From the NCBI GenBank assembly GCA_963701775.1, contig CAVPBH010000020.1:221527-285526 (forward strand): a stretch of 64,000 bases of DNA, given 5' to 3'. Under the pieces are notes generated by a model that saw only the letters and a list, made by a program, of their open reading frames with translations, had not been told where the DNA came from and ran no database searches. Numbering within the stretch: position 1 is the stretch's first letter; each line of letters starts with the position of its first letter. Positions 5,960 through 17,705 of the stretch are shown piece after piece. The stretch comes from an uncultured Chloroflexia bacterium (GTDB lineage: Bacteria > Chloroflexota > Anaerolineae > JAAYZQ01). Made by a program: the position numbers and the translations under genes.

Positions 5960-6984
5960 TTTGCCGCCTGCGCCTGGCAAAGGCCGGCAGAATTGGTACC
6001 AAAGAGCTTCCACTCGGAATTTCTTGCCAGATAGACCAATCGTGAGCATCACCGGCACCTCCATCAACGGCCCGATGACCGTAAACGGCAACCATCGGAG
6101 CGCCCAAAGACCGTCACCGCCATGGCGATGGCCAACTCAAAGTTGCGGCCGGTGCAGTGAAAGGACGTCGTCGCCGAGTCGGCGTCGCAAAAGCCCATCT
6201 TGCGGCTGACCATCAGACGAAAAACAGCACGAAGAAGAAGAGACCAGCGGCATGGCCATCCGCCAGATCAAGCGGGATCTGCAGGATCACATCGCCCTTC
6301 AGGGCAAACATAACGACCAGCGTGAACAGCAGCGCGATGAGCTGCACATCTCCAGCCCCGGGAGCGCCTTGGTCTCGAACCACTCCCGCCCCTTCACTTC
6401 AGCATCAAGTCGGGACAGGACCCCGGCCACCAGGGGCAGCCCCAGGTACAGCAGCACGCTCTGCGCCATCACGCCGATGCCGACAGACCCCGCGCGCCCA
6501 GGGTCAGCCAGATAAAGAAACGCGTGGTCACCATCTGGATCAGACGTGTTCCAGGCCATCAGGCCGATCCCCAGCGGCCGTTGCCTCGCGCCAGATCGGT
6601 CCAGACCAGGACCATGGCGATGCAGGGGGCCACCCCCAACAGGACCAGGCCGGTCCATAGTCGGGATATCGCGCAGGAAAGATCCAGCCAAGAGGTACAG
6701 CAGGAAAGGATTGAAGGCATAGTTGAAAAAGACCACGACAGCCGCCAGCCTTCCAGTCACGGACGGCCTTGCCACCTTCCAACTTCAATTTGGTCATGGC
6801 CGGGTAGATCATCATAAACAGGCCGAGCGGGAATGCCCAGCTCCAGGGCCTTGCCGACCTGCGGCAAGATACTTGCCCAGCAGCAAGCCGACGGCCATCG
6901 CCAGAAAAATCCACACCGGCAAGAGCTTGCTGTCCAGGATAGAGACCTGGTTCTTTGCGGGCCGTTGTCCTCTTCGCTGCTCAT
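5960..6984 (-). pseudogene. arsB: ACR3-family arsenite efflux transporter, heavily frameshifted
   Basis: ACR3 motifs lie in three minus-strand frames: MSSEEDNG...ILPQVGKALELGIPARP; LFMMIYPAMTKLKLEGGKAVRDWKAGG; AAVVVFFNYAFNPFLLYLLAGSFLRD; and a C-terminal FTVIGPLMEVPVMLTIGL. Confidence 0.65.
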
Positions 6985-7051: not shown

Positions 7052-7469
7052 CTACTCCTGCCGGAGAAGTTCCGGCACCCGCGCGGCAATCTCGTCGCGC
7101 ACGTCGCGAAACGCAACCATTATCTTTTCGTCAGTGATTTTGGTGTTGCCGGATCGGGGAAGCCAGGGGCTCCCGACTGCCCTTCCCCAGCCACACCGGG
7201 CAGTCTCGGCTGCGTTATCGCAGACGGTGACGACGACGTCGAAATCGATACCACGGAACTCGAGCGCGCTCTTGGTAGCGCCCCCGGGTGCTCGATGCCT
7301 AACTCTCGGCCAGGGCGCGCACGGCCATGGGATGGACGTAACCCGTCGGCTCGGTGCCGGCGCTGACTGCCTCCCACTCGTCGCCCAGGCGAGCATTTGA
7401 CGATCGCCTCGGCCATCTGCGACGGGCCGAGTTGCCTGTGCAAAGGAACAGGACTCTGCGTTTCACCAC
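7052..7469 (-). pseudogene. arsC: arsenate reductase, LMW-PTP (thioredoxin-coupled) type, at least 3 frameshifts
   Basis: KRRVLFLCTGNSAR then SQMAEAIVKCSPG, then EWEAVSAGTEPTGYVHPMAVRALAE, then DFDVVVTVCDNAAE...ITDEKIMVAFRDVRDEIAARVPELL. The segments are distributed over three frames of the minus strand. Confidence 0.65.
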
Positions 7470-7534: not shown

Positions 7535-7849
7535 TCACGTCCAGCAAGGCGAGGTAGCGAGCGTTTGAGTCTCTCCCAGCCGCTCCGCAACGATGGAGTA
7601 GTAGACCCACTGCGCATCACGGCGGTTGCACACCAACCCGGCCTGTCGCAGCACGCCCAGGTGGTGAGATGCCAGCGGTTGGGGCAGGCCGAGCTGTTCG
7701 ATGATGTCGCAGACACACGTCTCCTGTTGGGTAAGCAACTTCAGAATGCGCAGCCGGTTCTCGTCGGCGATCACACGCAGCATGGCAGCGAGCTCCTCCA
7801 CGCTTTCCCCAGTCGTATCTGTGCTCATGGCCTCGTTTCGACTCCTCAC
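7535..7849 (-). CDS. arsR: ArsR/SmtB family metalloregulator
   Basis: Intact 104-aa ORF with the HTH and metal-binding ELCVCDL-like motif (AAMLRVIADENRLRILKLLTQQETCVCDIIEQLGLPQPLASHHLGVLRQAGLV). Sits directly upstream of the arsC/ACR3 remnants. Confidence 0.85.
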   Translation of the reverse strand: MRSRNEAMSTDTTGESVEELAAMLRVIADENRLRILKLLTQQETCVCDIIEQLGLPQPLASHHLGVLRQAGLVCNRRDAQWVYYSIVAERLGETQTLATSPCWT

Positions 7850-7984
7850 TAACTTCCAGTCGCCTGCCTATCAACGCAGGTTGATCACTATCTTTGTGTT
7901 GACGGTGCTGTCAAGTACGGGCCTGTTATTTGTTCTTTCGCTCTATCTCCACCTCTGATGTACGGCACGCCCATACGCCGGCCT

Positions 7985-9271
7985 TCAAGGGCACTGGATG
8001 ATCCCCCGCGCCCACAGGCAGTCCCCACACACGGGGAACTCGTTGCCAAAGCAGTCCTCTTCGTTCGTCTCGGCGTACTGGCAGCCGCCGCAGTCGGCGC
8101 AGGGCGAAAAGTCAAACTCGATCACCCGCTCCCGGAAACGGCGGAACTCCTCGTGCGCCCAGATGCTGCCGATCGGCTCTTCTTTGGCGTTGCCCACGCT
8201 GTAGCGGCGGATGGCTTTCTCTCGTCCCAGGACGTAGCAGGTGTACGAGTGCATCAGCGGGATGCAGGGGCTCACACTCCCGTCCCAGCAGACGGCAGCA
8301 GCTCCCTGCCGCACGAAACGGCAGTAGCCGGCGCCTTCCATCGGCCGCCCTTGAAGCGGATCGATCAACCCCCCGTGCCGCATCAGCCCTATGAGCGGTT
8401 CGAGCGTGTCGCGGCGCGCGTCTAGTCGGGGCAGCACCATCTCCGGAGACCAGGGCGAGCGCTGGCGGTGCGAGCTGGCGGTCGAAAGGCCGTACAGGAT
8501 GTCGTCCTTGTACTCGCTGCTGTACGGCAGAACGTTTGTCACCACCACAAAGCTTGCCCCCATGGTCAGAGCGAGCCGGCGCAGTCGCGGCAGCTCCGCC
8601 AGGTTGCGCTTGGTGGCAACGAACTCCAGGCCGATCTCAGGGTTGGCCCGCTTCAGCTCCCACTGCAAGTCGCGCAGGACGGCCACGTTCTCCTGGACCG
8701 TGCCCAGGTCGGCTCCAGGCCGGGCGCCCGCGTGCGCTTCGGGCGTCGCTCCATCCACGGAGAGCACCAGCGAATCGAGCCCGGCCTCGATCAGACCCTT
8801 CGCCTTCGGCGAGTCCAGGAGCAGCCCATTGCTGATCATCTCGGTGCGGGCGCCCAGCTCGTGCCCCAGCGCCACCATCTCGACTATGCCGGGGTGGAGA
8901 AGCGGCTCGCCAAGGCCCCAGAAGGCCATCGTGTGCAGCGAAGTGACACCCCGCAGACCCTCTACCAGCCGGTAGTACGTATCCATCGTCATCGTACCGA
9001 CGGGCTCGTTCCAGGTATTCCGCACGCAGGTGCCGCACTTCAGGTTGCAGGCCGAAGTGGGTTCCACATACACCTTGCGCAGCGGTGGGTCAGACGGCCG
9101 CATCATCAGCCCGTCCTCCGTCTCCTCGATCGATAGCTCCGCCGTGGGCGTCAGACCCCAGCGCTGGCGAACCGCGTTGGGTAGGTGCAGGTACCCCTTG
9201 TTGCCCACGCGCGCATGAAGGCCTTTCGCTTTGCCCGGAACTTGGCGCATTCTCTTCCTTCTCTCGTTCAC
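7985..9271 (-). CDS. radical SAM/SPASM-domain enzyme with N-terminal SpoVT/AbrB-like domain; candidate tungsten-cofactor oxidoreductase maturase (Cmo-like)
   Basis: Intact 428 aa. N-terminal swapped-hairpin-like segment (KGYLHLPNAVRQRWGLTPTAELSIEETEDGLMMRP). Radical SAM CxxxCxxC (TSACNLKCGTCVRN). Cys-rich C-terminal SPASM region (CRFVRQ...CWDGSVSPC...CADCGGCQYA...CGDC). Two AOR genes lie 10-14 kb away on the same strand. Confidence 0.75.
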   Translation of the reverse strand: MNERRKRMRQVPGKAKGLHARVGNKGYLHLPNAVRQRWGLTPTAELSIEETEDGLMMRPSDPPLRKVYVEPTSACNLKCGTCVRNTWNEPVGTMTMDTYYRLVEGLRGVTSLHTMAFWGLGEPLLHPGIVEMVALGHELGARTEMISNGLLLDSPKAKGLIEAGLDSLVLSVDGATPEAHAGARPGADLGTVQENVAVLRDLQWELKRANPEIGLEFVATKRNLAELPRLRRLALTMGASFVVVTNVLPYSSEYKDDILYGLSTASSHRQRSPWSPEMVLPRLDARRDTLEPLIGLMRHGGLIDPLQGRPMEGAGYCRFVRQGAAAVCWDGSVSPCIPLMHSYTCYVLGREKAIRRYSVGNAKEEPIGSIWAHEEFRRFRERVIEFDFSPCADCGGCQYAETNEEDCFGNEFPVCGDCLWARGIIQCP

Positions 9272-9321
9272 CCCCCACGATCCACGCGGGTGAATAGACC
9301 ATCGGCTGCAGGGGGGAGCGC

Positions 9322-10104
9322 CTATGCGTCTGTCTTCGACAAGGCCCTAGACCCGCCCGTCCCGCCGCAGCGCACCTGTACGATCTCCGCCAGAATGGCG
9401 AGGGCAATCTCGGCCGGGCTGCGCCCTCCCAGATCCAGCCCGATCGGGGCGCGCACCCGTGCGAGCTGCTCGTCCGTCACCCCATGTGCCCGCAGGTGGT
9501 CAAAGATGGTCCGCACCTTGCGCCGGCTGCCGATCATGCCCACGTAGGCCGCCGGCGTGTCGAGCGCCTGGTGCAGCGCCTGCTCGTCGGTCAGATGCGT
9601 CTGGGTCATGATCACCACGAAGGTCCAGGGCGTGATCGCCACCGGGTCGAATTGGGGCAGCGTCGCTCGCTCCGGCTGCACGTCGACCACTCGCACCAGG
9701 AAGCCTGCGACGCGCGCCATCTCGGCCAGTGGGCGGCCCAGATGTCCGCCTCCAACGATGAGCAGGACCGGCGCCGGCCGGTAGACCTCGACGAAGAGGG
9801 TCACGGCGCCGCCGCACAGCGTCCCCAGAGCATCCTGACCCGCCGCGTGCAGCGCAGAGTGGAACAGCCGCGACCGGCCCTCCTGCAGGGCGGCCATGGC
9901 TTCTTCACGCGCCTGCAGTTCCAGCTCGCCCCCGCCCACGTTGCCCGCAGCTCGGCCATCGGGCCATACAAGCAGCTTGAAGCCCACCTGGGCGGGCGAT
10001 GCGCCCTGCACATCCACCACGGTCGCCAGGGCAACCGGCTCGTTGTTCTCCAACGCCGCGTTCAGTGCGGCGATCACGTCTCTCACGATCTCTTCCTCCC
10101 GCCG
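9322..10104 (-). CDS. XdhC/CoxI family molybdenum/tungsten cofactor insertion accessory protein
   Basis: XdhC_CoxI N-terminal domain (VRDVIAALNAALENNEPVALATVVDVQGASPAQVGFKLLVWPDG) plus Rossmann-like C-terminal domain (PVLLIVGGGHLGRPLAEMARVAGFLVRVVD...AYVGMIGSRRK). Probable GTG start overlaps the stop of the upstream small ORF (GTGTGA). Confidence 0.75.
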   Translation of the reverse strand, partial: RREEEIVRDVIAALNAALENNEPVALATVVDVQGASPAQVGFKLLVWPDGRAAGNVGGGELELQAREEAMAALQEGRSRLFHSALHAAGQDALGTLCGGAVTLFVEVYRPAPVLLIVGGGHLGRPLAEMARVAGFLVRVVDVQPERATLPQFDPVAITPWTFVVIMTQTHLTDEQALHQALDTPAAYVGMIGSRRKVRTIFDHLRAHGVTDEQLARVRAPIGLDLGGRSPAEIALAILAEIVQVRCGGTGGSRALSKTDA

Positions 10105-10109
10105 GACGG

Positions 10110-10334
10110 TCACACGTCGATCCGGCCGATCGGCCCATCGAGCTCCAGCCTGACCTTTCCATACCCCTGGATGTAGAACCAGACTTCCTGGCTCACGGGC
10201 GGAACCCGCGCCCACAGCTCCCGCGGCATGTACACCGTTCCGTAGCGCCTCCCCCACTCGCCGACCACGATTCCGACGTAGTCATCCGGGCTGTCAGGCT
10301 TGCCCACCCGACCGGATGGGACCTCACCGCCCAT
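10110..10334 (-). CDS. hypothetical 74-aa protein coupled to xdhC
   Basis: ORF MGGEVPSGRVGKPDSPDDYVGIVVGEWGRRYGTVYMPRELWARVPPVSQEVWFYIQGYGKVRLELDGPIGRIDV. Its ATG overlaps the stop of a 32-codon ORF upstream (TGATG) and its stop overlaps the xdhC GTG start. No family recognised. Confidence 0.35.
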   Translation of the reverse strand: MGGEVPSGRVGKPDSPDDYVGIVVGEWGRRYGTVYMPRELWARVPPVSQEVWFYIQGYGKVRLELDGPIGRIDV

Positions 10335-10433
10335 TCATCAGTCGACGACCATCAGCCGCAGCTCGATCGTGAGCGCGCCCCCCTCGTCTTTCAGATACTT
10401 CTTGAACCAGCCTGACTTGGTCTTGGCCAGGAT
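10335..10433 (-). CDS. possible 32-aa micro-ORF with strong Shine-Dalgarno (MILAKTKSGWFKKYLKDEGGALTIELRLMVVD)
   Basis: GGAGGGAGAGG followed by ATG on the minus strand. Ends at TGA overlapping the ATG of the 74-aa ORF. Could instead be the N-terminus of a single 106-aa gene split by a frameshift. Confidence 0.2.
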
Positions 10434-10581
10434 CATTCCTCTCCCTCGCTACCGGTCCATCCGGGTCCGAATCTCGCGCGGCGGAAAGCGGATCGCCCCG
10501 CACTGGCACACCTTGGCGCACGAGCCGAAGCCGTCATCGTGACTCCTGCCCCTCCGTGATCCTTGCTTGGGAAGCTCCCAT

Positions 10582-10764
10582 CTACTCCTGTCCTGCCTCC
10601 AGGTGGCCGCGCAGCCCCTTGCGTCGCACATCCTGCACCTGCGACCAGACCACCTCTTTCAGAAAGCGCAGGGCTGCTGCCTCATCCCGGTCGACGACGA
10701 TCATCTGCAGTTCCTGCTGTTCGCACTCGTCCAGCACCACGGATATCTTTGCTTCTCTTCCCAC
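10582..10764 (-). CDS. possible small hypothetical protein downstream of ccdA
   Basis: About 60 codons after the ccdA stop in the minus frame of ORF 10582..11040 (KISVVLDECEQQELQMIVVDRDEAAALRFLKEVVWSQVQDVRRKGLRGHLEAGQE). Protein-like composition; start probably GTG. No family assigned. Confidence 0.25.
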   Translation of the reverse strand: MGREAKISVVLDECEQQELQMIVVDRDEAAALRFLKEVVWSQVQDVRRKGLRGHLEAGQE

Positions 10765-10796
10765 TTTGACCCTCGACCCTATTCGCTGGCCCCGAG

Positions 10797-11474
10797 TCAC
10801 GCAATCCACAGGAAGTACAGGCCGACGCCGATGATGATCACCCCGCTCACCCGCTCGATGACCGTCGACCAGCGCCCAAGCGCCTGCATCTGCTTCAGCG
10901 CCCCGGCAAAGGTCCCGGCCAGGAGGATCGGCACGCCTCGCCCCAGCGAATAGACGAACAGCAGCGCCGCGCCGTAGACGAGAGCCCCTTCCTTGCTCAT
11001 CACGTAGGTCAGGATCGCCGCCAGCACCGGCGTGGCGCACTGCGAGGCCACCAGCCCGGAGACCAGCCCAAGCGCCAGCGCCCCCGGCACGCCCCGCAGC
11101 CGGATCCGCTCACGCAGCCGGGCCAAGCCTGATACCTGGGGAGGGTTGAAGACCCCCAGCATCGACAGGCCGATCAGCATGCAGACGGCAGCGAGCAAGT
11201 AGTACCACACCCGCGACGTGCCGCCGATTAGCCCACCGACCAGGCTGGCGACGACGCCCAGCATCATGAAGGTGATCGCCAGCCCCACGGTGAAGGTCAA
11301 CGACAGCGAAAAGGACCGCCCGCGTCCGAGCTGGCCCGACCCGCCGACATAGCCGATGATCAGCGGGATCATGGCCACGTTGCACGGGCCGATGCTCGTC
11401 ACGATGCCCCCCAGGAAGACCAGCACAAAGGCCAGCGGCGAGGCGGTTTGCAGGACGGATGGGTCCAGATCCAC
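10797..11474 (-). CDS. ccdA: cytochrome c biogenesis protein CcdA (DsbD transmembrane-domain family)
   Basis: Intact 225 aa, six TM segments, with the two conserved cysteines (IGPCNVAMIPL ... ASQCATPVLAAIL). Confidence 0.85.
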   Translation of the reverse strand: MDLDPSVLQTASPLAFVLVFLGGIVTSIGPCNVAMIPLIIGYVGGSGQLGRGRSFSLSLTFTVGLAITFMMLGVVASLVGGLIGGTSRVWYYLLAAVCMLIGLSMLGVFNPPQVSGLARLRERIRLRGVPGALALGLVSGLVASQCATPVLAAILTYVMSKEGALVYGAALLFVYSLGRGVPILLAGTFAGALKQMQALGRWSTVIERVSGVIIIGVGLYFLWIA

Positions 11475-11475
11475 G

Positions 11476-12036
11476 TTACTGCCCTCCCGCCAGGAACCGC
11501 AGCTTCTCCCGCAGCGCCTCCGCCGTCATCACGCCCAGCACGGTCTCCTGCTGTCCCGACTTGTCGTAGAATATCTGGGTCGGGATGGCGTAGATGCGGG
11601 CAACCTGCAGCAGCTTGGTATTGGTCTTGTCGTACACGTCGACGTCGACGAGCCCGACCGTGCTCTCGAACTCGGGATACACCTCGGCCACGATCGCCAT
11701 CATCTCCTTGCACTTGGCGCAGTTGGTGGAGTGATAGAAGCCCAGCGCCGGCTGCCCCGCTGCCAGCAGGCGCCCCAACTGCGCCTCCGCAGTCCCGCCG
11801 GACACGGTGGTTGCGGGGACCTGGGCGGACGCCGGCTTCGCAGCCGAGGTTGCCGGCGGCTGGCTCGCCGCTCCCGGAATGGCGTCGGCCGGCGCGTCGC
11901 CTGCCGACTTGGCCCCCTTAGCGACCAGGATGATGATGGCCGCCAGCAGCACCACGCCCCCAATGATGGCGGCCTTGGGGAACCCCTTCTTCGGGCCGGC
12001 AACCTTCTTCTGCGCGCGTCGTCTATGGCTCATCAT
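11476..12036 (-). CDS. membrane-anchored thioredoxin-like protein (TlpA/ResA-like thiol:disulfide oxidoreductase)
   Basis: N-terminal TM anchor, Ala/Pro-rich linker, then thioredoxin fold with CxxC (FYHSTNCAKCKEMMAIV...YAIPTQIFYDKSGQ). Stop overlaps the ccdA start. Confidence 0.75.
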   Translation of the reverse strand: MMSHRRRAQKKVAGPKKGFPKAAIIGGVVLLAAIIILVAKGAKSAGDAPADAIPGAASQPPATSAAKPASAQVPATTVSGGTAEAQLGRLLAAGQPALGFYHSTNCAKCKEMMAIVAEVYPEFESTVGLVDVDVYDKTNTKLLQVARIYAIPTQIFYDKSGQQETVLGVMTAEALREKLRFLAGGQ

Positions 12037-12330
12037 CCACCACTCCTTCTCCCTGCTCCACTGCCTCTGCCAGCCACTCCCGGATCTCGAGCGCAGACGG
12101 CACCCGCCCGCCGCAGACCAGCTTCCCGTTGATCACCAACCCGGGCGTGAAGAGCAGCCCGTAGCGCCGAAAGTCCTCGGGCTCATGCAGGTGCATCAGG
12201 GTCACCCTCTCCAGGTCTTACCTCGCCGGACTCGCTTCGGCCATCAACTCCAGGACGGCGACGGCAAGTCCCTCCAGGCGGTAGCAGTTGGCGCATCCGG
12301 GGCCGAGAATCTTGATGTCCGGCATCGTGC
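12023..12330 (-). pseudogene. thioredoxin family protein (redox-active disulfide protein 2 type) interrupted by an in-frame TAA
   Basis: MPDIKILGPGCANCYRLEGLAVAVLELMAEASPAR, then TAA, then DLERVTLMHLHEPEDFRRYGLLFTPGLVINGKLVCGGRVPSALEIREWL. Colinear with the intact paralog at 14504-14755. Confidence 0.55.
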
Positions 12331-12333
12331 TCA

Positions 12334-12772
12334 CTCCTCGATGATGATTTCCGGCTCGACCGCCAGTTGGCTTGTGATCGAGTGCGCCACCAGGCTGTAC
12401 TTCTGGGCCGATTCCAGCGCCCGCTCGATCCGCTTGCGGCTGTCGCCCCGCACCACGATCGCGGGGCCGCAGAACGACGCGGGTAAACGTCTCGGTACGG
12501 TCCAGGGCGATTTGCTTGGTGCCCTCAGCATGGCAGTCGTAGCTCACTAGGTCGATCTTGAAGCGCTCGCAGGCCCACAGGAACATCATCATGATGCAGG
12601 TGTTGACGGCGGCGACAAAGGCGTCCTCCGGCGTCAGGACTCCCTCGTGACCGTGGGCATCAGGCGGGGCCGAAAATGCCATCACCGGGCCGTTGCCCAT
12701 GCGGACCTCGCCCAGGTGCTCCCCCTTCCAGGTTACGTCGGTGTGATACTTGTATTCCATGGTCGTCTCCAA
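12334..12772 (-). CDS. OsmC/Ohr family peroxiredoxin-like protein with one apparent frameshift near 12480
   Basis: METTMEYKYHTDVTWKGEHLGEV...AFVAAVNTCIMMMFLWACERFKIDLVSYDCHAEGTKQ...TFTRVVLRP in one frame. The C-terminus IVVRGDSRKRIERALESAQKYSLVAHSITSQLAVEPEIIIEE is in another frame (ORF 12331..12531). Confidence 0.65.
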
Positions 12773-13563
12773 TCGTCAGCTAACCGTGCTCGCCGGGCTC
12801 GGCGGCGGACGATGGCCAGGGCGTACTCGCGCAGAACGGCTTCGCGCCACTCGGCTTCCTCGCCGTCCGGGACCTGGTTGTAGAGCTTGACTGCCTCCAT
12901 CAGCTCGCCGGCCGTGGCCTCGCTCACCGGCTTGCCTAGCTCGCGGAATTGCTCGAGGATGGCGGGCAGGGCCAGCACTTGTACGCGGCGGCCATTGATA
13001 CTGATCTGAGCCACCGGGATGCCCGAGCCGCAGGCGCACGTGGCCGTGGTTACGGCGTCCGGTTCTCCCTCCACCTTCAGCCCCGCGGCGCCCGCCTCCG
13101 GCTCGCCCTCGCCGCCGGGCGCCTGGTCCTCTACGTCGATGAGGGTTGGCCGCATATTGCCGAGCAGGCGATCCACCTCGCGGGCCAACTCCTGGGCCGC
13201 CACCTGGGCCACCTCTTCCCCCGCGGCATCCAACTGGCGCCTGCCTTGGGGCTGGGGCAGACCGTCCTGCGCGATCAGGTCGCTGATCACGACGCTCGCT
13301 GCAGGTTTGGCACTGTACTTCTCTGTCGCCCGCGCCGCGCAGCGCATGTCACAGCCGTCGACGGCGATGGTGGGGTAAAAACGGGCAAAGGCTCGCTCTC
13401 GTTCCTCGCCGGCCAGGAAGAGGGGCAGGCACAGCGTGACCGTCTCCTCGGGGCGCAGCCGCTCCAGCACCTGGAGCACCGCCATCCGCGAGACCGTCCC
13501 TTCCGGAAGATCCTCGCCGCTGCAAGAGATCAGACCGACTTTCTTCTTGGGCAGGTCGACCAT
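12733..13563 (-). CDS. DGC-domain putative zinc-binding protein (long form)
   Basis: N-terminal Cys cluster and DGC motif (LISCSGEDLPEG...TLCLPLFLAGEERERAFARFYPTIAVDGCDMRCA). Acidic linker and a second Cys cluster (TATCACGSGIP). The 3' end overlaps the OsmC start, so the true stop is uncertain. Confidence 0.6.
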   Translation of the reverse strand: MVDLPKKKVGLISCSGEDLPEGTVSRMAVLQVLERLRPEETVTLCLPLFLAGEERERAFARFYPTIAVDGCDMRCAARATEKYSAKPAASVVISDLIAQDGLPQPQGRRQLDAAGEEVAQVAAQELAREVDRLLGNMRPTLIDVEDQAPGGEGEPEAGAAGLKVEGEPDAVTTATCACGSGIPVAQISINGRRVQVLALPAILEQFRELGKPVSEATAGELMEAVKLYNQVPDGEEAEWREAVLREYALAIVRRRARRARLADDWRRPWNTSITPT

Positions 13564-13566
13564 GGC

Positions 13567-14004
13567 TTACTTCTCCTCGCTCTTCTCGCCCAGCAGCTCG
13601 TCCACCTTGGCCGCGATCTCTTCGGCCAGGATGCGGGCCAGCTCGCGTCCGTTGTCGCCAATGTCCGACACCCCCTGCGCGCGCAGCTCCTTGTGGGCGC
13701 GGAAAACGTCGAACACGCGAAAGGTGGCGCTCGGTGTGCCGCCGGCTTGCTCGATGCTGATCCGGGCGCAGGCCTTCGGGCATCCGTCGATGGCGATGGT
13801 CTTGTGCTCGCCCACCAGGCGGCGGCTTCCCTCGTCGTCGGGCAGGGTCAGCCGCGCCAGGCAGACCGTGGCGGTCTCTTCGGGCCGCAGCTCTTCCACC
13901 ACCACGTAGGTCGCCTCCCGCCCAACGCTGCCAAAAGCCTTGCCGATCCCACTGCATGGGACGAGCAGCACGCGGTCGTTGTCGGTCTCTCTCTGCTCAC
14001 TCAT
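13567..14004 (-). CDS. DGC-domain putative zinc-binding protein (short form)
   Basis: Intact 145 aa (LLVPCSGIGKAFGSVGREATYVVVEELRPEETATVCLARL...HKTIAIDGCPKACA). Confidence 0.65.
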   Translation of the reverse strand: MSEQRETDNDRVLLVPCSGIGKAFGSVGREATYVVVEELRPEETATVCLARLTLPDDEGSRRLVGEHKTIAIDGCPKACARISIEQAGGTPSATFRVFDVFRAHKELRAQGVSDIGDNGRELARILAEEIAAKVDELLGEKSEEK

Positions 14005-14486
14005 AACTTCTTCGCTGCCTCCTCGGCCTGGCGCCGCATCACCACCAGGTAGTCCTCTGCCGCCAATAGGTTGGCCTGGTCGGCCTGCCAGTCACGGAGG
14101 GCGACCAGGGCCAGCCAGCCCCGGCCGTACGGTTCTTGGTTGATCAGCTCCGGGCTGGTCTCCAGCTCCTGGTTGATGTGCTGCACCGTCCCGCTCACCG
14201 GCGAGAGGAGATCGATGGCAACCTTGATCGTCTCGATGCTGCCCAGGTAGTCGCCCTGTGCCATCTGCGTGCCGGCCGGCTCAATCTCGGCAAAGGCGAC
14301 GTCACCGCTGGACTGTTGGACGTAATCGCTCACGCCCACCCGCGCCAGGCCCTCTTCGACCTGGACCCAGAGGCCAGCCTCGCTGTACCAGCAGCCTTTA
14401 ATCACTTTGAACACGAACTTGTCTACCGTGGCTTCCAGATATTCGGCTTCCACGTAGCTCCTCCTCCTGCTATGGTGTTGAATCAT
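14001..14486 (-). CDS. glycine-cleavage H-protein-like lipoyl-domain protein
   Basis: GcvH-like core with the conserved lysine position (GSIETIKVAIDLLSPVSGTVQHINQELETSPELINQEPYGRGWL). Stop overlaps the next gene (GTGA/ATGA style). Confidence 0.65.
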   Translation of the reverse strand: MIQHHSRRRSYVEAEYLEATVDKFVFKVIKGCWYSEAGLWVQVEEGLARVGVSDYVQQSSGDVAFAEIEPAGTQMAQGDYLGSIETIKVAIDLLSPVSGTVQHINQELETSPELINQEPYGRGWLALVALRDWQADQANLLAAEDYLVVMRRQAEEAAKKL

Positions 14487-14503
14487 ACTATCCGATCAGC
14501 CCA

Positions 14504-14755
14504 CTAGCCCTCGGCCATGGCCGCGTTGGCTATCCAGGTCGATACCTCGGCCTTGCTCGGGATCCGTCCCGCGCTGACCACCTTGCCGTCGATGACCAAC
14601 CCCGGCGTACCCAGGATCTTGTATGTCATGATCTGTCGCATGTCCGTCACGTGGGTGAACGCTGCCTCGACCCCCATCTCGGCGGCCGCTTCGCGGGCGA
14701 TTTGTTCGAGCCGCTGGCAATTGGCGCATCCCACCCCCAGGATCTTGATCTCCAT
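14504..14755 (-). CDS. thioredoxin family protein (redox-active disulfide protein 2 type)
   Basis: Intact 83 aa (MEIKILGVGCANCQRLEQIAREAAAEMGVEAAFTHVTDMRQIMTYKILGTPGLVIDGKVVSAGRIPSKAEVSTWI). Confidence 0.8.
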   Translation of the reverse strand: MEIKILGVGCANCQRLEQIAREAAAEMGVEAAFTHVTDMRQIMTYKILGTPGLVIDGKVVSAGRIPSKAEVSTWIANAAMAEG

Positions 14756-14830
14756 GGTGCAATCCTCCTATTTCTTCATGTAGAAAACCTTATATGCACG
14801 GCATTGCATATTTGCACGCAAAAAAGAGAG

Positions 14831-15196
14831 TCACGCCCCCTGGCAGCGCGGGCATGGGCAATTGTCCACGGCCGTCTCCGGCACCGGCGGGAAGATCACG
14901 CCTTCGCCCGCAGTTGCCACCGTCAGCGCCCGGCTTTCGGCGAGCAGCCCGGCCAGGCGCTCATCCGCCAGGCGGTAGTAGATCAGCGTGCCCTCACGCC
15001 GGTCGGTCACCAGCCCCGCCTCGCGCAGCGTCGCCAACTGCTGCGAGACGTAGGGCTGGCGCTGGTCTAGGACGGCCGTCAGATGGCAGACACAGGCCTC
15101 CTGGAACGCCAAGAGATCCAGGATGCGCAGACGCACCGGGTGTGAGAGTGCCTGGAAAAGCTCAGCCTGCTTCTCGTAGCCTCCGGACTCTTCCAT
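14831..15196 (-). CDS. ArsR/SmtB family transcriptional regulator with Cys-rich C-terminus
   Basis: Intact 121 aa (LSHPVRLRILDLLAFQEACVCHLTAVLDQRQPYVSQQLATLREAGLV); C-terminal CPCPRC. First gene of the minus-strand redox cluster. Confidence 0.85.
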   Translation of the reverse strand: MEESGGYEKQAELFQALSHPVRLRILDLLAFQEACVCHLTAVLDQRQPYVSQQLATLREAGLVTDRREGTLIYYRLADERLAGLLAESRALTVATAGEGVIFPPVPETAVDNCPCPRCQGA

Positions 15197-15214
15197 CTAT
15201 CCGTAGCTCCTATC

Positions 15215-15265
15215 GAATATTCAAAAAGATGCACGTATCATACCTAACCGGTCCGGCCCTGTCAA
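15215..15265 (-). promoter_or_regulatory. consensus sigma70 promoter TTGACA-N17-TATGAT (minus strand) with GAATATTC palindrome between -10 and the start codon
   Basis: Reverse complement of 15237-15265 reads TTGACAgggccggaccggttaggTATGAT. Perfect 8-bp palindrome GAATATTC at 15215-15222 in the leader. ArsR start codon at 15196. Confidence 0.5.
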
Positions 15266-15367
15266 ATCGGGAGGGCCTTGCATAACAGCACCTGGGAGGC
15301 AAAGAAGTCGCGGCGGGTCTTCCGCCTGCCGGGGCGTATCCCTCTTCGCCGTCTCCGAGCCGCACTA

Positions 15368-16561
15368 TCAGGCGCAGAGCGCCTGGGCGGCCAAGGCGTA
15401 GACACGCGCAGCCGCTGTGAGCTGCGCAACGTCCAGCCGCTCTTCGAGGGTGTGGCACAGGGCCTCTTTGCCCGGCCCGTAGTTGACGGTCGGGATGGCC
15501 AGGTCGTTCACCAGGAAATCCATGTCCAGGTAGCCATTGTGGTAGGCTCGCTCAGGCGGCCGGCCGGTGACTTGGCAATGCGCCTCGTGCAGCGCGCGGG
15601 TGAGCGGGCTGTCTCCGAGCGTGGCCGACGGGTTCAGGCCCCGCTGGCGGATGAGGGGCCATTTCCAGTCCGGCCGGTCGATCTCGACGCTCCCGCGGAA
15701 GCCGGGCAGCGACTCGGCCAGGCCGGCGAGAAGATCCCCGATCTCTGCCAGGACGCCTGCCTGGGTTTCGCCCGGCACCGTGCGCCGGTCGATCCAGACG
15801 TCGCAGCGATCCGGTACGTTGTTGTAGGCTGTGCCTCCCTGGATGAGGCCGACGTTGACGGTGCCGCGCACCGTCCCCACACCCGGCACATCGACCGCGC
15901 GCGGCTCGAGCCGCGCCAGCGCTTCCACGACGCGTGCGGCGTGCCCGACGGCGTTGATCCCCAACCAGGGCGTGGAGCCATGGGCCTGTTTACCCAGGAG
16001 CGTGATACGTGCCGGCACGGTACCCTTGTGGCCGACGATGAGCTGCAGGTCCGACGGCTCGGTGACGATGGCCGCTTCGGCCTGGATGCGGTCCTCCACC
16101 AGCGAGAAGCTTCCGCGATGCTCCGACTCTTCGTCGATCACCGCCGCGAGGGCCACGCCCTTGCGCAGCGGCAGGCCGGCCTGCGCCAACGCGCCGATGG
16201 CGGCGATGGAAGCGGCAAGGCCACCTTTCTGGTCCACGGCACCGCGGCCCCAGATGGCCCCGCTCACGAGGCGCCCGCTGTACGGGTCGGGCATGCCCAG
16301 TGCGGGCACCGTGTCTGTATGGGCGTGGAACAACAGCCCAACGGGCCCGCCATCGCGCCCGGGCAGCTCAGCCAGGACATTGAGCCGGCCCTGGTGGACG
16401 TCGCGCACGGTCACGGCCAAGCCCATCGCGACCAGGCGTGTGGCCAGCCACTCGCCCAGCGCCCGCTCCTGGCCGTTGGGGCTCGGGATTCGAACCAGCT
16501 CCTGGGCGAGGCTCACAAGCGCGGCATCGTCGATCTGGGACAAGAGCGAATGGGAGTCCAT
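15368..16561 (-). CDS. M20 family metallopeptidase (ArgE/DapE/N-carbamoyl-amino-acid amidohydrolase-like)
   Basis: MDSHSLLSQIDDAALVSLAQELVRIPSPNGQE...HAHTDTVP...GRGAVDQKGGLAA...IDEESEHRG; intact. Upstream in-frame extension of the ORF is probably not translated. Confidence 0.8.
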   Translation of the reverse strand: MDSHSLLSQIDDAALVSLAQELVRIPSPNGQERALGEWLATRLVAMGLAVTVRDVHQGRLNVLAELPGRDGGPVGLLFHAHTDTVPALGMPDPYSGRLVSGAIWGRGAVDQKGGLAASIAAIGALAQAGLPLRKGVALAAVIDEESEHRGSFSLVEDRIQAEAAIVTEPSDLQLIVGHKGTVPARITLLGKQAHGSTPWLGINAVGHAARVVEALARLEPRAVDVPGVGTVRGTVNVGLIQGGTAYNNVPDRCDVWIDRRTVPGETQAGVLAEIGDLLAGLAESLPGFRGSVEIDRPDWKWPLIRQRGLNPSATLGDSPLTRALHEAHCQVTGRPPERAYHNGYLDMDFLVNDLAIPTVNYGPGKEALCHTLEERLDVAQLTAAARVYALAAQALCA

Positions 16562-17686: not shown

Positions 17687-17705
17687 GCACCTTGCTCCCT
17701 TCCCC

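What the first reader, a model, noticed from the sequence alone, without database searches (positions are those of the whole stretch)
7985..15273. ArsR-bracketed redox cluster: Trx-like x2, GcvH-like, DGC-domain x2, OsmC, TlpA-Trx, CcdA, micro-ORFs, XdhC and an AbrB-radical-SAM/SPASM enzyme in one co-directional run
Twelve or more tightly packed minus-strand genes, many with overlapping stop/start codons, begin with an ArsR/SmtB regulator (14831-15196) behind a consensus promoter and end at a second ArsR (7535-7849). The combination is not a described operon. It joins thiol-redox proteins of the 'redox-active disulfide protein 2' type, two DGC-domain zinc-binding proteins, a GcvH-like lipoyl-type carrier and OsmC. 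It also carries a CcdA plus membrane-thioredoxin pair that exports reducing power, an XdhC cofactor-insertion protein and a radical SAM/SPASM enzyme. DGC and GcvH-like proteins are of unknown function. Their co-occurrence next to ars genes suggests an uncharacterised metal/metalloid (As, Sb, Se, W) thiol-handling system. It may be coupled to tungsten cofactor maturation for the nearby AORs.
Basis: partly seen in the sequence, partly recalled or inferred. Interest (0 to 1): 0.75.

Follow-up and report, generated by a model that had tools for sequence, protein, structure and literature searches.

The report
Conserved lipoyl-carrier thiol module in arsenic islands
The gene run is real, and its core (an ArsR regulator, small thioredoxins, a lipoyl-carrier-like GcvH paralogue, two cysteine-rich DGC proteins and an unusual OsmC-fold protein) is an undescribed module that recurs in the same order next to arsenic-resistance genes in hundreds of genomes; the proposed link to tungsten enzymes is not supported.

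Summary
Three of them carry defects: a 1-nt insertion in OsmC, an in-frame TAA in the second Trx_3, and a frame change in the tail of the long DGC gene.

The run is two recurrent arsenic-island modules joined head to tail.

Module A is ArsR-Trx_3-GcvH-like-DGCshort-DGClong-OsmC-like-Trx_3. At least 543 species genomes encode a relative of the long DGC protein. In the 80 best loci, 69 of 72 evaluable ones keep GcvH-DGC-DGC-OsmC in the same order. Of 55 long loci, 54 have an ArsR and 41 have Acr3, ArsC or ArsM.

The lipoyl-lysine position is invariant. A bona fide dihydrolipoyl dehydrogenase gene adjoins the GcvH-like gene in about 10 of 80 loci. The OsmC-like protein keeps the peroxidatic Cys, replaces the canonical second Cys by Ser, and has a new invariant Cys.

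Module B is Trx_3-membrane Trx-CcdA-small ORFs-AbrB/radical SAM/SPASM-ArsR-ArsC-Acr3. The radical SAM family sits mostly beside ars genes, not AORs. XdhC is a rare insert.

Best reading: an As(III)-induced lipoyl/dithiol relay for arsenical stress. This is inferred, not shown. I found no description beyond one passing mention.

The parts
15237..15265 (-). Promoter-like site TTGACA-17-TATGAT upstream of ArsR1
   Evidence: 11 of 12 matches. Two such sites were found in 8.5 kb against 1.0 expected. This is a consensus match only.
15215..15223 (-). Operator-like half-site TGAATAT(TC), containing the GAATATTC palindrome, just 3' of the -10 box
   Evidence: Searches give the sequence and position; the full inverted repeat ATATTC[AG]-N6-[TC]GAATAT lies upstream of ArsR1-type genes in 14 of 73 loci (0.007 expected), and a half-site in 43 of 73 (9.5 expected).
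14831..15196 (-). ArsR1: ArsR/SmtB regulator with a CVC motif (C35, C37) and a C-terminal CPCPxC
   Evidence: NF033788, 96.9 bits against a cutoff of 55; the Cys residues are conserved in 45-53 of 55 orthologues.
14504..14755 (-). Trx_3 / ArsE-family small thioredoxin-like protein (CANC)
   Evidence: TIGR00412, 96.5 bits against 62; the CxxC is present in 73 of 74 orthologues.
14001..14486 (-). GcvH-like lipoyl-carrier paralogue with a conserved N-terminal extension of about 30 aa
   Evidence: GCV_H 1.7e-30; below the NCBIfam GcvH cutoffs (109.7 against 117; 104 against 115.9). K88 aligns with the lipoyl-Lys of solved H-proteins. K88 is invariant in 77 of 77.
13567..14004 (-). Short DGC-domain protein (C17, DGC75, C79); 4-nt overlap with the GcvH-like gene
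   Evidence: PF08859, 5.5e-14; the three Cys are conserved in 79-80 of 80; no NCBIfam family.
12733..13563 (-). Long DGC protein: N-terminal DGC domain (C14, C45, C71, C75), a disordered linker, and a C-terminal domain that opens with CxCGSG (C176, C178). The true stop is probably near 12776-12782 after a frame change.
   Evidence: all six Cys are invariant in 81 of 81; frame change in the tail; model with pLDDT 82.5; flavodoxin-like fold with no specific relative.
12331..12760 (-). OsmC-fold Cys protein, disrupted by a 1-nt insertion near 12460. It has C59 (peroxidatic position), an invariant C80, and Ser at the canonical second-Cys position.
   Evidence: alignment to 2onf and 2d7v. C59, C80 and S126 are each 76 of 76.
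12023..12325 (-). Second Trx_3 (CANC) with an in-frame TAA at 12220-12218
   Evidence: PF13192, 5.4e-16 on the read-through sequence; coordinates.
11476..12036 (-). Membrane-anchored thioredoxin (one N-terminal TM helix; CAKC at residues 106-109)
   Evidence: paired with CcdA in L015, L019, L080, L004 and L052.
10797..11474 (-). CcdA/DsbD_TM thiol-disulfide transporter (Cys31, Cys146)
   Evidence: PF02683, 2.4e-33; the ArsG model scores only 46 against 200. Cys positions.
10582..10770 (-). Conserved 62-aa ORF (s62), unknown family
   Evidence: no Pfam or NCBIfam hit; 56-88% identical copies in ars islands L015, L040, L004, L065, L114 and L145.
10338..10436 (-). Conserved 32-aa ORF (s32), preceded by a GGAG-type ribosome-binding site
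   Evidence: sequence; 72-75% identity in L004 and L084, always directly upstream of s74.
10110..10334 (-). Conserved 74-aa ORF (s74), unknown family; its stop overlaps the XdhC start
   Evidence: 70-71% identity in L004 and L084; about 32% relatives in L008, L014, L066, L070 and L110.
9322..10113 (-). XdhC-family cofactor-insertion protein; a rare insert in this context
   Evidence: XdhC_CoxI and XdhC_C. NF045664 scores 204 against 350; the XdhC-radical SAM pair occurs only in L014, L085 and L086.
7985..9250 (-). AbrB/MazE-like domain + radical SAM (CX3CX2C) + SPASM enzyme
   Evidence: 12 invariant Cys; the family is mostly ars-linked and falls below the TIGR04317 and TIGR04311 cutoffs.
7887..7914 (-). 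Second promoter-like site, TTGACA-16-GATAGT, upstream of ArsR2
7535..7828 (-). ArsR2 (ETCVCDI motif), head of a canonical ars operon
   Evidence: the order radical SAM-ArsR-ArsC-Acr3 is conserved in L124, whose ArsR is 88% identical.
7052..7465 (-). LMW-PTP-type arsenate reductase ArsC, broken by frame changes
   Evidence: the orthologue in L124 is intact (142 aa).
5990..6970 (-). Acr3 arsenite efflux permease, broken by at least 5 frame changes
   Evidence: the orthologue in L124 is intact.

Best explanation
The 7.3-kb run is two recurrent arsenic-island modules joined head to tail and placed under metalloid-sensing ArsR repressors.

Module A is ArsR1, Trx_3, GcvH-like, DGC-short, DGC-long, OsmC-like and Trx_3. 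I read it as a dithiol relay built around a lipoylated H-protein paralogue.

Proposed electron path: NAD(P)H reduces dihydrolipoyl dehydrogenase. That enzyme is encoded in cis in about one locus in eight and is presumably the housekeeping enzyme here. It reduces the lipoyl arm on K88 of the GcvH-like carrier. The carrier then passes electrons, or a bound trivalent arsenical, to the cysteine-rich partners: the paired DGC proteins, the OsmC-fold protein with its C59/C80 pair, and the CxxC Trx_3 proteins.

Proposed purpose: to cope with trivalent arsenicals, which attack vicinal dithiols and lipoamide. The module would offer a dedicated protein-bound dithiol as trap or shuttle, would re-reduce or free arsenic-bridged and oxidised thiols, and would hand As(III) on to Acr3.

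Module B is Trx_3, membrane Trx, CcdA, small ORFs, AbrB-radical SAM/SPASM, then ArsR2-ArsC-Acr3. It would export reducing power to the outer face of the membrane and add a protein- or small-molecule-modifying radical SAM step of unknown substrate. XdhC is a lineage-specific insert.

Shown: the gene content, the conserved order, the linkage to ars genes, the conserved lipoyl-Lys and Cys positions, the cis-encoded Lpd in relatives, and the ArsR CVC motif with a conserved operator-like repeat.

Inferred: lipoylation, the direction of electron or arsenic flow, the role of each DGC and OsmC protein, induction by arsenite, and any effect on resistance.
For: Conservation of the core:
- At least 543 species-level genomes encode a relative of the long DGC protein.
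- In the 80 best loci, 69 of 72 evaluable ones have GcvH-DGCs-DGCl-OsmC in the same order and strand. Trx_3 is within 6 kb in 67 of 80 and an ArsR1-type gene in 63 of 80.
- Of 55 loci of at least 15 kb, 54 have an ArsR-family gene, 52 have Trx_3, 41 have Acr3, LMWP-ArsC or ArsM, and 35 have Acr3. The methyltransferase passes the arsenite methyltransferase cutoff, 337 against 263.
- The module occurs in at least five bacterial phyla and in a Hodarchaeota MAG, where the order is FeS-GcvH-DGC-DGC-OsmC-Trx_3-ArsR-ArsC.
- A 379-aa DGCs+DGCl fusion is on record.

Evidence for a lipoyl relay:
- K88 aligns with the lipoyl-Lys of solved H-proteins and is invariant in 77 of 77.
- The flavoprotein gene adjoining the GcvH-like gene in about 10 of 80 loci (directly upstream in 9, downstream of OsmC in L150) passes the dihydrolipoyl dehydrogenase equivalog cutoff in 4 of 4 intact cases, 479-511 against 408.8.
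- No GcvP, GcvT, E1 or E2 family appeared among the recurrent neighbour families that were inspected (not every cluster was identified).

Evidence for thiol chemistry and arsenic sensing:
- Invariant Cys sets are found in DGCs, DGCl, OsmC and Trx_3. ArsR1 has CVC plus CPCPxC.
- An operator-like repeat is conserved upstream of ArsR1-type genes.

Precedents:
- Ohr and OsmC are lipoyl-dependent thiol peroxidases. The Trichomonas OsmC system runs on H and L proteins. Both papers are in the reference list seen; their content is from my own knowledge.
- Arsenite binds lipoic acid, and a GcvH paralogue is arsenite-induced in Pseudomonas (PMC10138600).

Module B: the 80 closest metagenomic relatives of the radical SAM enzyme sit beside Acr3 (24), Trx_3 (25), an ArsR gene (18 with the ArsR1 query, 15 with ArsR2), CcdA (16), the tetrad (11-13) and ArsC (10).
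Against: - There are no expression, lipoylation, binding or resistance data for any member.
- The window encodes no Lpd, no lipoate ligase and no PF04060 protein in 64 kb.
- The OsmC-fold protein lacks the canonical second Cys (Ser in 76 of 76). It is only distantly related to characterised OsmC/Ohr: its best solved relatives are 'hypothetical proteins', and its best NCBIfam peroxiredoxin hit scores 27 against 166.
- 14 of 55 long loci show none of Acr3, ArsC or ArsM within 10 kb, including the closest relative, L004.
- The DGC fold is a generic flavodoxin-like sandwich with no diagnostic relative, so the DGC role is a guess.
- In this genome OsmC, the second Trx_3 and the tail of the long DGC gene carry defects. 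ArsC and Acr3 are badly broken. The system may therefore be inactive here, or the assembly may be error-prone.
Confidence: 0.45

Rival explanations
1. Generic peroxide defence. Module A is simply an Lpd / lipoyl-H-protein / OsmC hydroperoxide reductase. It is co-regulated with ars genes because arsenic causes oxidative stress, and it does not touch arsenic itself.
For: - GcvH-like and OsmC-fold genes are always together, and Lpd is encoded in cis in some loci.
- The peroxidatic-position Cys is invariant.
- There is direct precedent for Ohr/OsmC running on lipoyl proteins (references seen).
Against: - The canonical resolving Cys is replaced by Ser in 76 of 76, and the protein is far from characterised OsmC/Ohr.
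- This reading leaves the two invariant DGC proteins between carrier and OsmC unexplained.
- The regulator is a CVC-type ArsR, not a peroxide sensor.
- Neighbours are efflux, reduction and methylation genes for arsenic rather than other antioxidant genes.
Confidence: 0.2
2. Arsenical-transforming pathway. The DGC and OsmC-fold proteins are new thiol-dependent reductases for arsenate or pentavalent organoarsenicals, fed by the lipoyl carrier and Trx_3. The radical SAM/SPASM enzyme does anaerobic carbon-arsenic chemistry.
For: - Frequent linkage to ArsM, Acr3, ArsP-like permeases and ArsE-family Trx_3.
- The radical SAM sits inside the operon between ArsR and GcvH in L020, L028, L062, L071, L139 and L158.
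- No adjacent precursor peptide for the radical SAM.
Against: - There is no CX5R P-loop.
- 32 of 80 loci already carry an LMWP ArsC.
- SPASM enzymes are mostly protein or peptide modifiers.
- The radical SAM is present in only about 16% of module loci.
Confidence: 0.15
3. XdhC and the radical SAM/SPASM enzyme mature the pterin cofactor of the nearby tungsten AORs, and the thiol proteins serve that process.
For: - The best NCBIfam hits are 'tungsten cofactor oxidoreductase radical SAM maturase' and 'XdhC family aldehyde oxidoreductase maturation factor'.
- Two AORs lie at 19333-23588.
- L008 has ArsR-radical SAM-AOR, and that radical SAM passes the TIGR04317 cutoff.
- A few relatives sit beside AORs: L100, L102, L103, L140 and L142.
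Against: - Both window proteins score below cutoff: 298 against 380 and 204 against 350.
- AORs occur in 3 of 80 and 5 of 80 loci, against ars genes in most.
- XdhC is within 6 kb in 1 of 80 module loci.
- The AORs in the window are separated from the run by three unrelated genes and a promoter.
- No Moco/Wco riboswitch is present.
- XdhC-type chaperones are known for molybdenum hydroxylases, not AFOR-family enzymes (own knowledge).
Confidence: 0.07
4. Reactive-sulfur or thioarsenate handling. The lipoyl carrier and the DsrE-like-fold DGC proteins relay sulfane sulfur, as LbpA, DsrE and TusA do in sHdr systems, to make or break thiolated arsenicals in sulfidic sediments.
For: - There is precedent for GcvH-like LbpA as a sulfur-pathway carrier (PMC10332631 abstract; details from my own knowledge).
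- ArsR1 gives a partial hit to the sulfite-sensing BigR model.
- The hosts are mostly sediment anaerobes.
Against: - No rhodanese, TusA, sHdr, persulfide dioxygenase or SQR appeared among the recurrent neighbour families that were inspected.
- The NCBIfam GcvH_rel_desulf model scores only 39.5 against 150.
- ArsR1 has the As(III)-type CVC site.
Confidence: 0.08
5. Non-functional remnant or chance juxtaposition: the run is a decaying island of unrelated genes in this genome.
For: Frame defects occur in OsmC, the second Trx_3, the DGC-long tail, ArsC, Acr3 and the ArsP-like gene.
Against: - The order is conserved across dozens of genomes.
- Most genes of the run are intact.
- The nearest relative, L001, also a long-read MAG, has different frameshifts, which points to assembly errors.
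Confidence: 0.05

Closest known systems
ArsR-controlled ars operons and islands (ArsR-Acr3-ArsC, with ArsE-family Trx_3, ArsM, ArsP)
   Same: - CVC-type ArsR regulators and a promoter-proximal inverted repeat.
- Physical linkage to Acr3, LMWP-ArsC and ArsM.
- The Trx_3 proteins pass the MTH895/ArsE family cutoff.
- An ArsR-ArsP-ArsE-DGC operon was noted in Pseudodesulfovibrio mercurii ND132 (bioRxiv 10.1101/2022.10.17.512643).
   Different: - The GcvH-like, DGC-short, DGC-long and OsmC-fold genes are not named ars genes.
- No NCBIfam model covers the DGC proteins.
- None of the four has a tested role in arsenic resistance.
Lipoyl-dependent Ohr/OsmC peroxidase systems (Lpd + lipoylated protein + Ohr/OsmC; Trichomonas OsmC with H and L proteins)
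   Same: The same three protein kinds occur together without the rest of a glycine cleavage or 2-oxoacid dehydrogenase complex. The lipoyl-Lys and the peroxidatic-position Cys are conserved.
   Different: - The canonical resolving Cys is replaced by Ser, and a new invariant Cys80 appears.
- Two DGC proteins are always inserted between carrier and OsmC.
- Control is by ArsR rather than by a peroxide sensor.
- Lpd is encoded in cis in only a minority of loci.
LbpA lipoate-binding proteins of sHdr sulfur oxidation
   Same: A GcvH paralogue recruited away from glycine cleavage and working with small Cys proteins of alpha/beta fold.
   Different: There are no sHdr, TusA, DsrE3 or dedicated lipoate ligase genes nearby. 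The GcvH-related NCBIfam model is not matched (39.5 against 150).
TIGR04317 'tungsten cofactor oxidoreductase radical SAM maturase' and TIGR04311 'putative metalloenzyme maturase'
   Same: These are the best-scoring families for the radical SAM/SPASM enzyme. The CX3CX2C motif and the Cys-rich SPASM region are the same, and a few relatives sit beside AORs.
   Different: The score is below both cutoffs (298 against 380; 246 against 400). The enzyme has an extra N-terminal AbrB/MazE-like domain. Its family neighbours are mainly Acr3, ArsR, Trx_3 and CcdA.
CcdA/DsbD with extracytoplasmic thioredoxins (ResA/TlpA type), and ArsEFG of Shewanella
   Same: A DsbD_TM protein with two membrane Cys is paired with a membrane-anchored CxxC thioredoxin and a cytoplasmic Trx_3. 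ArsE-type Trx_3 and a DsbD_TM-related ArsG occur in ars operons (NCBIfam names; ArsEFG biology from my own knowledge).
   Different: The CcdA here scores 46 against the ArsG cutoff of 200 and looks like a reductant exporter, not an efflux permease. No cytochrome c maturation genes are nearby.
ArsD metallochaperone
   Same: This is a functional analogy only: a small Cys-rich protein that binds As(III) and hands it to an efflux system. The CxC of DGC-long recalls vicinal-Cys As(III) sites.
   Different: There is no sequence or fold relation, the partner pump is Acr3 rather than ArsA/ArsB, and nothing has been tested.

Membership tests
ars (arsenic resistance) operon/island | ArsR/SmtB repressor with an As(III)-binding Cys motif (CVC in the DNA-binding region) | tested here: met
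   ArsR1 has EACVCHL and ArsR2 has ETCVCDI. NF033788 is above cutoff for both. CVC is conserved in 52-53 of 55 ArsR1 orthologues.
ars (arsenic resistance) operon/island | Adjacent arsenite efflux pump and arsenate reductase | tested here: inconclusive
   Acr3 and LMWP-ArsC lie directly downstream of ArsR2 but are broken by frame changes in the window. They are intact in the related contig L124. Across long module loci, Acr3 is present in 35 of 55.
ars (arsenic resistance) operon/island | Induction by arsenite/antimonite and a contribution to resistance | not testable with these tools
   Needs expression and phenotype data.
Glycine cleavage system H protein (GcvH equivalog) | Score at or above the curated equivalog cutoff | tested here: not met
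   TIGR00527 scores 104.0 against 115.85, and NF002270 scores 109.7 against 117.
Glycine cleavage system H protein (GcvH equivalog) | Genomic association with GcvP/GcvT | tested here: not met
   No GcvP or GcvT appeared among the recurrent neighbour families that were inspected in 80 loci (not every cluster was identified), and none of the window genes scanned beside the run is one.
Lipoyl-carrier (H-protein fold) proteins | Lys at the lipoylation position in the hairpin | tested here: met
   K88 in IETIKVA aligns with ESVKAA of solved H-proteins and is invariant in 77 of 77. Actual lipoylation was not tested.
Lipoyl-dependent Ohr/OsmC peroxidase system | Peroxidatic Cys on the long helix | tested here: met
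   C59 aligns with the Cys of 2onf and 2d7v and is present in 76 of 76.
Lipoyl-dependent Ohr/OsmC peroxidase system | Resolving Cys at the canonical C-terminal position | tested here: not met
   KYSLVA in the window aligns with KYCF and ENCF in the solved relatives. Ser is present in 76 of 76, and a different invariant Cys, C80, appears.
Lipoyl-dependent Ohr/OsmC peroxidase system | Dihydrolipoyl dehydrogenase as electron source | tested here: inconclusive
   None is encoded in the 64-kb window. In about 10 of 80 related loci a gene adjoining the GcvH-like gene is one, and it passes the TIGR01350 cutoff in 4 of 4 intact cases.
TIGR04317 tungsten cofactor oxidoreductase radical SAM maturase | Score at or above the curated cutoff (380 bits) | tested here: not met
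   The score is 298.1. Nine relatives score 283-317. Only the AOR-adjacent enzyme of L008 passes, at 394.7.
TIGR04317 tungsten cofactor oxidoreductase radical SAM maturase | Adjacency to an AOR-family gene | tested here: not met
   The nearest AOR starts about 10 kb from the radical SAM gene, with many genes between. AORs are near 5 of 80 relatives.
RiPP radical SAM/SPASM maturases | A conserved precursor-peptide gene next to the enzyme | tested here: not met
   Clustering of small ORFs within 900 bp upstream and 600 bp downstream in 90 loci found only ArsR, Trx_3, glutaredoxin-like, Acr3 and MoaD-like genes. s32 and s74 accompany the enzyme only in the window, L004 and L084.
XdhC_rel_AOR / xanthine dehydrogenase accessory XdhC | Score at or above the curated cutoffs | tested here: not met
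   NF045664 scores 204 against 350, and TIGR02964 scores 110.6 against 161.6. The Pfam XdhC_CoxI and XdhC_C domains are present.
MTH895/ArsE family thioredoxin-like protein | Score at or above cutoff, and a CxxC motif | tested here: met
   TIGR00412 scores 96.5 against 62. CANC is present in both copies, and the CxxC in 73 of 74 orthologues.
ArsG aromatic aminoarsenical efflux permease | Score at or above the curated cutoff (200 bits) | tested here: not met
   NF040495 scores 46.1. The protein fits DsbD_TM/CcdA.
CcdA-thioredoxin reductant export pair | Two conserved membrane Cys in the DsbD_TM protein, plus a membrane-anchored CxxC thioredoxin | tested here: met
   Cys31 and Cys146 in CcdA. 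The adjacent gene encodes a TM helix and CAKC. Topology and substrate were not tested.
DGC domain (PF08859) | Pfam gathering score and the DGC motif with conserved Cys | tested here: met
   Scores are 52.5 and 57.9 against 27. The DGC motif and its flanking Cys are invariant. The metal content (Zn, Fe-S or As) is unknown.

The most novel reading that the evidence does not exclude
Protein-bound lipoamide is used as a dedicated arsenic-handling cofactor. A lipoylated GcvH paralogue traps or reduces arsenicals. The two DGC proteins are a new class of arsenical-binding or -reducing enzymes, which would give PF08859 a function. In many anaerobes an AbrB-radical SAM/SPASM enzyme adds oxygen-independent chemistry on arsenic compounds or on these proteins. 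Together this would be a new, widespread arsenic-detoxification pathway.
Probability: 0.2. Interest if true: 0.85.

Novelty: new variant of a known kind. Interest (0 to 1): 0.62.

Why it matters
Arsenic mobilisation and speciation in soils, aquifers and sediments is driven by anaerobes such as Anaerolineae and Acidobacteriota. These are exactly the lineages that carry this module.

- A conserved, ArsR-linked gene set built on a lipoyl carrier would add new genes to the ars repertoire.
- It would give a first functional context to the DGC domain and to a distinct OsmC subfamily.
- It would connect the classic target of arsenite (lipoamide dithiols) to a defence mechanism.
- It flags an ars-linked radical SAM/SPASM family whose nearest curated relatives are named for tungsten enzymes. 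Propagating that name to it would be wrong, since it scores below their cutoffs.

All of this is directly testable by expressing the module in arsenic-hypersensitive E. coli.

Tried and rejected
- **Exact-sequence look-up of the window's GcvH-like protein:** not on record, so the source genome could not be named. The nearest relative is a Chloroflexia MAG with 78% identity in DGC-long.
- **Selenocysteine reading of the in-frame stop in the second Trx_3:** rejected. The codon is TAA and lies away from the CxxC.
- **Sequence search of solved structures with the DGC-long profile:** nothing.
- **RiPP hypothesis for the radical SAM:** no conserved neighbouring peptide.
- **Riboswitch or other RNA element in 7000-24000:** nothing near a gathering score. 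The terminator-like count equals chance.
- **Literature searches:** terms were DGC domain, PF08859, COG4273, TIGR04317, GcvH + ars, radical SAM + Acr3, and ArsEFG. They found only a passing mention of an ArsR-ArsP-ArsE-DGC operon. Subscription-only papers were not searched.
- **Compositional island:** GC content is like that of the neighbours.
- **Single-linkage clustering of all neighbouring ORFs:** this lumped some families but still showed the recurrent partners.

Full report
**What is in the sequence**

Family searches confirm them:
- ArsR1 (14831-15196).
- An ArsE-family Trx_3 (14504-14755).
- A GcvH-like protein (14001-14486).
- A short DGC protein (13567-14004) and a long one (12733-13563).
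- An OsmC-fold protein (12331-12760).
- A second Trx_3 (12023-12325).
- A membrane-anchored CxxC thioredoxin (11476-12036).
- CcdA/DsbD_TM (10797-11474).
- Three small ORFs of 62, 32 and 74 aa.
- XdhC (9322-10113).
- An AbrB/MazE-radical SAM-SPASM enzyme (7985-9250).
- ArsR2 (7535-7828).

Several stop and start codons overlap, and most gaps are under 30 nt. A near-consensus promoter-like site (15265-15237) and the GAATATTC palindrome (15222-15215) lie upstream of ArsR1.

Four corrections are needed.
- OsmC reads through only if a 1-nt insertion near 12460 is removed. The second Trx_3 has an in-frame TAA, which is not a selenocysteine codon. The tail of the long DGC gene changes frame.
- XdhC starts at the GTG at 10113, overlapping the stop of the 74-aa ORF.
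- A second promoter-like site (7914-7887) precedes ArsR2, so ArsR2-ArsC-Acr3 is probably its own operon.
- Minus-strand genes continue to about 37.8 kb, so co-directionality alone says little.

**Is the core conserved?**

A search with the long DGC protein returned 3,834 significant relatives of about 248 aa. I annotated the 80 best loci by tblastn with the window's proteins and with Pfam-labelled genes from related contigs.

Results:
- In 69 of 72 evaluable loci the order GcvH-like, DGC-short, DGC-long, OsmC-fold is kept on one strand.
- Trx_3 is within 6 kb in 67 of 80 loci, and is the gene directly downstream of OsmC in 47 of the 72 loci where that position could be scored.
- An ArsR1-type gene is present in 63 of 80, and is directly upstream of GcvH in 30.
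- Among the 55 loci of at least 15 kb, 54 have an ArsR-family gene, 41 have Acr3, LMW-PTP ArsC or ArsM, and 35 have Acr3.
- The methyltransferase passes the arsenite methyltransferase cutoff.
- ArsA, ArsP-like permease and PstB genes also recur.

The hosts are mostly Chloroflexota (Anaerolineae and relatives). Acidobacteriota, Verrucomicrobiota, Omnitrophota and Lentisphaerae are also represented. A Hodarchaeota MAG carries FeS-GcvH-DGC-DGC-OsmC-Trx_3-ArsR-ArsC, although contamination of that MAG cannot be excluded. One contig encodes a DGC-short/DGC-long fusion.

**The second half of the run**

The other genes are optional. Within 6 kb of the anchor in 80 loci, CcdA occurs in 16, the membrane thioredoxin in 5, the radical SAM in 13 and XdhC in 1.

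I ran the reverse test with an alignment of the AbrB-radical SAM/SPASM enzymes against metagenome contigs. Among the 80 closest relatives, many on short contigs, the neighbours were:
- Trx_3 in 25.
- Acr3 in 24.
- An ArsR gene: 18 with the ArsR1 query and 15 with the ArsR2 query.
- CcdA in 16.
- The GcvH-DGC-DGC-OsmC tetrad in 11-13.
- ArsC in 10.
- The PF04060 Fe-S protein in 10.
- AOR in 5.
- XdhC in 4.

Three loci help place the window.
- In the closest locus (L084, 74% identity) the order is ArsR ... Trx_3-membrane Trx-CcdA-FeS-s32-s74-radical SAM-Acr3.
- L124 keeps radical SAM-ArsR2 (88% identical)-ArsC-Acr3, all intact.
- In several genomes the radical SAM sits between ArsR and GcvH, inside module A.

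The window is therefore best described as module A (ArsR1 to the second Trx_3) fused to module B (Trx_3, membrane Trx, CcdA, small ORFs, radical SAM, ArsR2, ArsC, Acr3), with XdhC inserted. XdhC-radical SAM pairs occur only in the nearest relatives: L014, L085 and L086.

**The tungsten/AOR idea**

- The best NCBIfam names for the radical SAM and XdhC point to tungsten or aldehyde oxidoreductase maturation, but both scores are below cutoff: 298 against 380 and 204 against 350.
- Of ten relatives tested, only the enzyme of L008, which is directly adjacent to an AOR, passes TIGR04317. Both ars-linked and other AOR-linked members score 283-317.
- AORs are within 10 kb in 3 of 80 DGC-anchored loci.
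- In the window the two AORs (19333-21282 and 21702-23588) are separated from ArsR1 by an M20 peptidase, a split PreA-like gene and an amidohydrolase.
- No cofactor riboswitch is present.

I rate this coupling unlikely for the run as a whole. It is possible only for the XdhC-radical SAM pair.

**Residue-level evidence**

- **GcvH-like.** It falls just below the canonical GcvH cutoffs. Its K88 aligns with the lipoyl-lysine of solved H-proteins and is invariant in 77 of 77 orthologues. It also has a conserved N-terminal extension of about 30 residues.
- **Lpd.** In about 10 of 80 loci a flavoprotein gene adjoins the GcvH-like gene (directly upstream in 9). In four of four intact cases it passes the dihydrolipoyl dehydrogenase equivalog cutoff, 479-511 bits against 408.8. 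No P-, T-, E1- or E2-type family appeared among the recurrent neighbour families that I inspected.
- **OsmC-fold protein.** It keeps the helix Cys (C59, 76 of 76). It has Ser where its solved relatives 2onf and 2d7v have the second Cys (76 of 76). It has a new invariant Cys80.
- **DGC proteins.** DGC-short has three conserved Cys (79-80 of 80). DGC-long has four in the DGC domain and a CxCGSG at the start of a well-predicted C-terminal domain.
- **ArsR1.** It has the CVC motif and a C-terminal CPCPxC.
- **Operator.** Upstream of ArsR1-type genes, the inverted repeat ATATTC[AG]-N6-[TC]GAATAT occurs in 14 of 73 loci (0.007 expected), and its half-site in 43 of 73 (9.5 expected). The window's GAATATTC is the right half-site, placed just after the -10 box.

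**How it most likely works**

Three facts frame the mechanism.
- Trivalent arsenicals target vicinal dithiols, and lipoamide in particular (stated in PMC10138600; also general knowledge).
- Ohr/OsmC proteins take electrons from lipoylated proteins, and Trichomonas runs OsmC on H and L proteins alone (papers listed in the references seen; content from my own knowledge).
- Here a lipoyl-carrier paralogue, sometimes with its own Lpd, is locked in an operon with four to five Cys proteins under an As(III)-type repressor, next to arsenite efflux genes.

I therefore propose a lipoyl/dithiol relay. NAD(P)H reduces Lpd, Lpd reduces the carrier, and the carrier serves the DGC pair, the OsmC-fold protein and Trx_3. 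The relay would trap or shuttle trivalent arsenicals, or restore arsenic-damaged thiols, and would feed Acr3. CcdA and the membrane thioredoxin would extend it to the outside of the membrane. The radical SAM would act on an unknown protein or small-molecule substrate.

Only the anatomy and its conservation are shown. All of the chemistry is inferred. I put about 0.8 on 'arsenic-stress thiol module' in general and 0.45 on the relay as stated.

The rivals are a plain peroxide reductase, a new arsenical reductase or C-As pathway, sulfur/thioarsenate handling, AOR maturation, and a decayed remnant.

**State of the locus in this genome**

OsmC, the second Trx_3 and the DGC-long tail carry single defects. 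ArsC, Acr3 and an ArsP-like permease (4233-4939) are badly broken, while their orthologues in L124 are intact.

The nearest relative, a long-read MAG, has frameshifts at other positions, and other window genes are also split (334-1300 and 16609-17719). Assembly error is therefore likely. The clustering of defects in the canonical ars genes leaves real decay open.

**Novelty**

- NCBIfam (June 2026) has no model for either DGC protein or for the small ORFs, and none is passed by the GcvH-like, OsmC-fold, XdhC or radical SAM proteins.
- Full-text searches found only a passing note of an ArsR-ArsP-ArsE-DGC operon in P. mercurii ND132 and an arsenite-induced GcvH paralogue in Pseudomonas, which its authors interpreted as folate metabolism.
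- Subscription-only literature was not covered.

I class the module as a new variant of a known kind (ars islands with thiol accessory genes). There is a minority chance that it is a new arsenic-handling mechanism.

Noticed in passing
window 5990-7465 (minus) and 4233-4939 (plus): The canonical ars genes beside the cluster are heavily broken: Acr3 by at least 5 frame changes, LMW-PTP ArsC by at least 2, and an ArsP-like permease by at least 1. The 1.3-kb radical SAM, XdhC, CcdA, GcvH-like and DGC-short genes are intact. The orthologues in L124 are intact. This is either real pseudogenisation or uneven long-read error.
   Followed up: partly
window 334-1300 and 16609-17719: An ABC-transporter permease and a PreA/dihydroorotate-dehydrogenase-like Fe-S gene are each split into two overlapping ORFs. 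This suggests scattered indel errors across the whole window.
   Followed up: no
window 15215-15223; upstream of ArsR1-type genes in L019, L022, L024, L027, L035, L036, L038, L044, L049, L050, L076, L107, L114, L125: A conserved operator-like inverted repeat, ATATTC[AG]-N6-[TC]GAATAT, is present in 14 of 73 loci against 0.007 expected. The window keeps only the right half-site well.
   Followed up: yes
window 10582-10770, 10338-10436, 10110-10334; L004, L015, L040, L065, L084, L114, L145: Three small ORFs with no Pfam or NCBIfam match are conserved in other ars islands. s32 and s74 are always adjacent and in the same frame, separated by TGATGA in the window. In L084 they lie directly upstream of the radical SAM gene.
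   Followed up: partly
L002:14904-15410, L164:930-1505 and 27 of 80 module loci: A protein of about 170-190 aa recurs in these ars islands but is absent from the window. Its C-terminus matches the [4Fe-4S] domain of the CFeSP gamma subunit (PF04060). Some loci also carry a weak MetH-activation-domain-like gene (L001:13958-14578). This hints at corrinoid or methyl-transfer chemistry.
   Followed up: partly
L165:8001-9140 (P0033): A 379-aa fusion of the short and long DGC proteins supports a physical partnership. It comes from a long-read MAG, so a lost stop codon cannot be excluded.
   Followed up: partly
L164 (Hodarchaeota MAG, GCA_048887005.1): The full module (FeS-GcvH-DGC-DGC-OsmC-Trx_3-ArsR-ArsC) is present on a contig assigned to an Asgard archaeon. 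This implies inter-domain transfer or a binning error.
   Followed up: no
L001:19554-19862, L007 near 11992: Additional DGC-like genes lie downstream of a second ArsR in some loci, so DGC proteins occur in more than one ars sub-operon.
   Followed up: no
window 19333-25467: Two paralogous AOR genes (42% identical) are followed by an aldo-keto reductase and a gene matching formylmethanofuran:tetrahydromethanopterin formyltransferase (FTR/FTR_C). That combination is unusual for a Chloroflexota-like genome.
   Followed up: no
L077:8410-9030 and 14 of 80 module loci: A protein of about 228 aa recurs near the module. From its sequence I guessed it is FmdE-like, but NCBIfam gave no hit and it was not scanned against Pfam.
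   Followed up: no
window 14825-14850: A terminator-like hairpin with a T-run overlaps the ArsR1 stop codon, ahead of the 75-nt gap to Trx_3. The count of such sites in the region equals chance.
   Followed up: no
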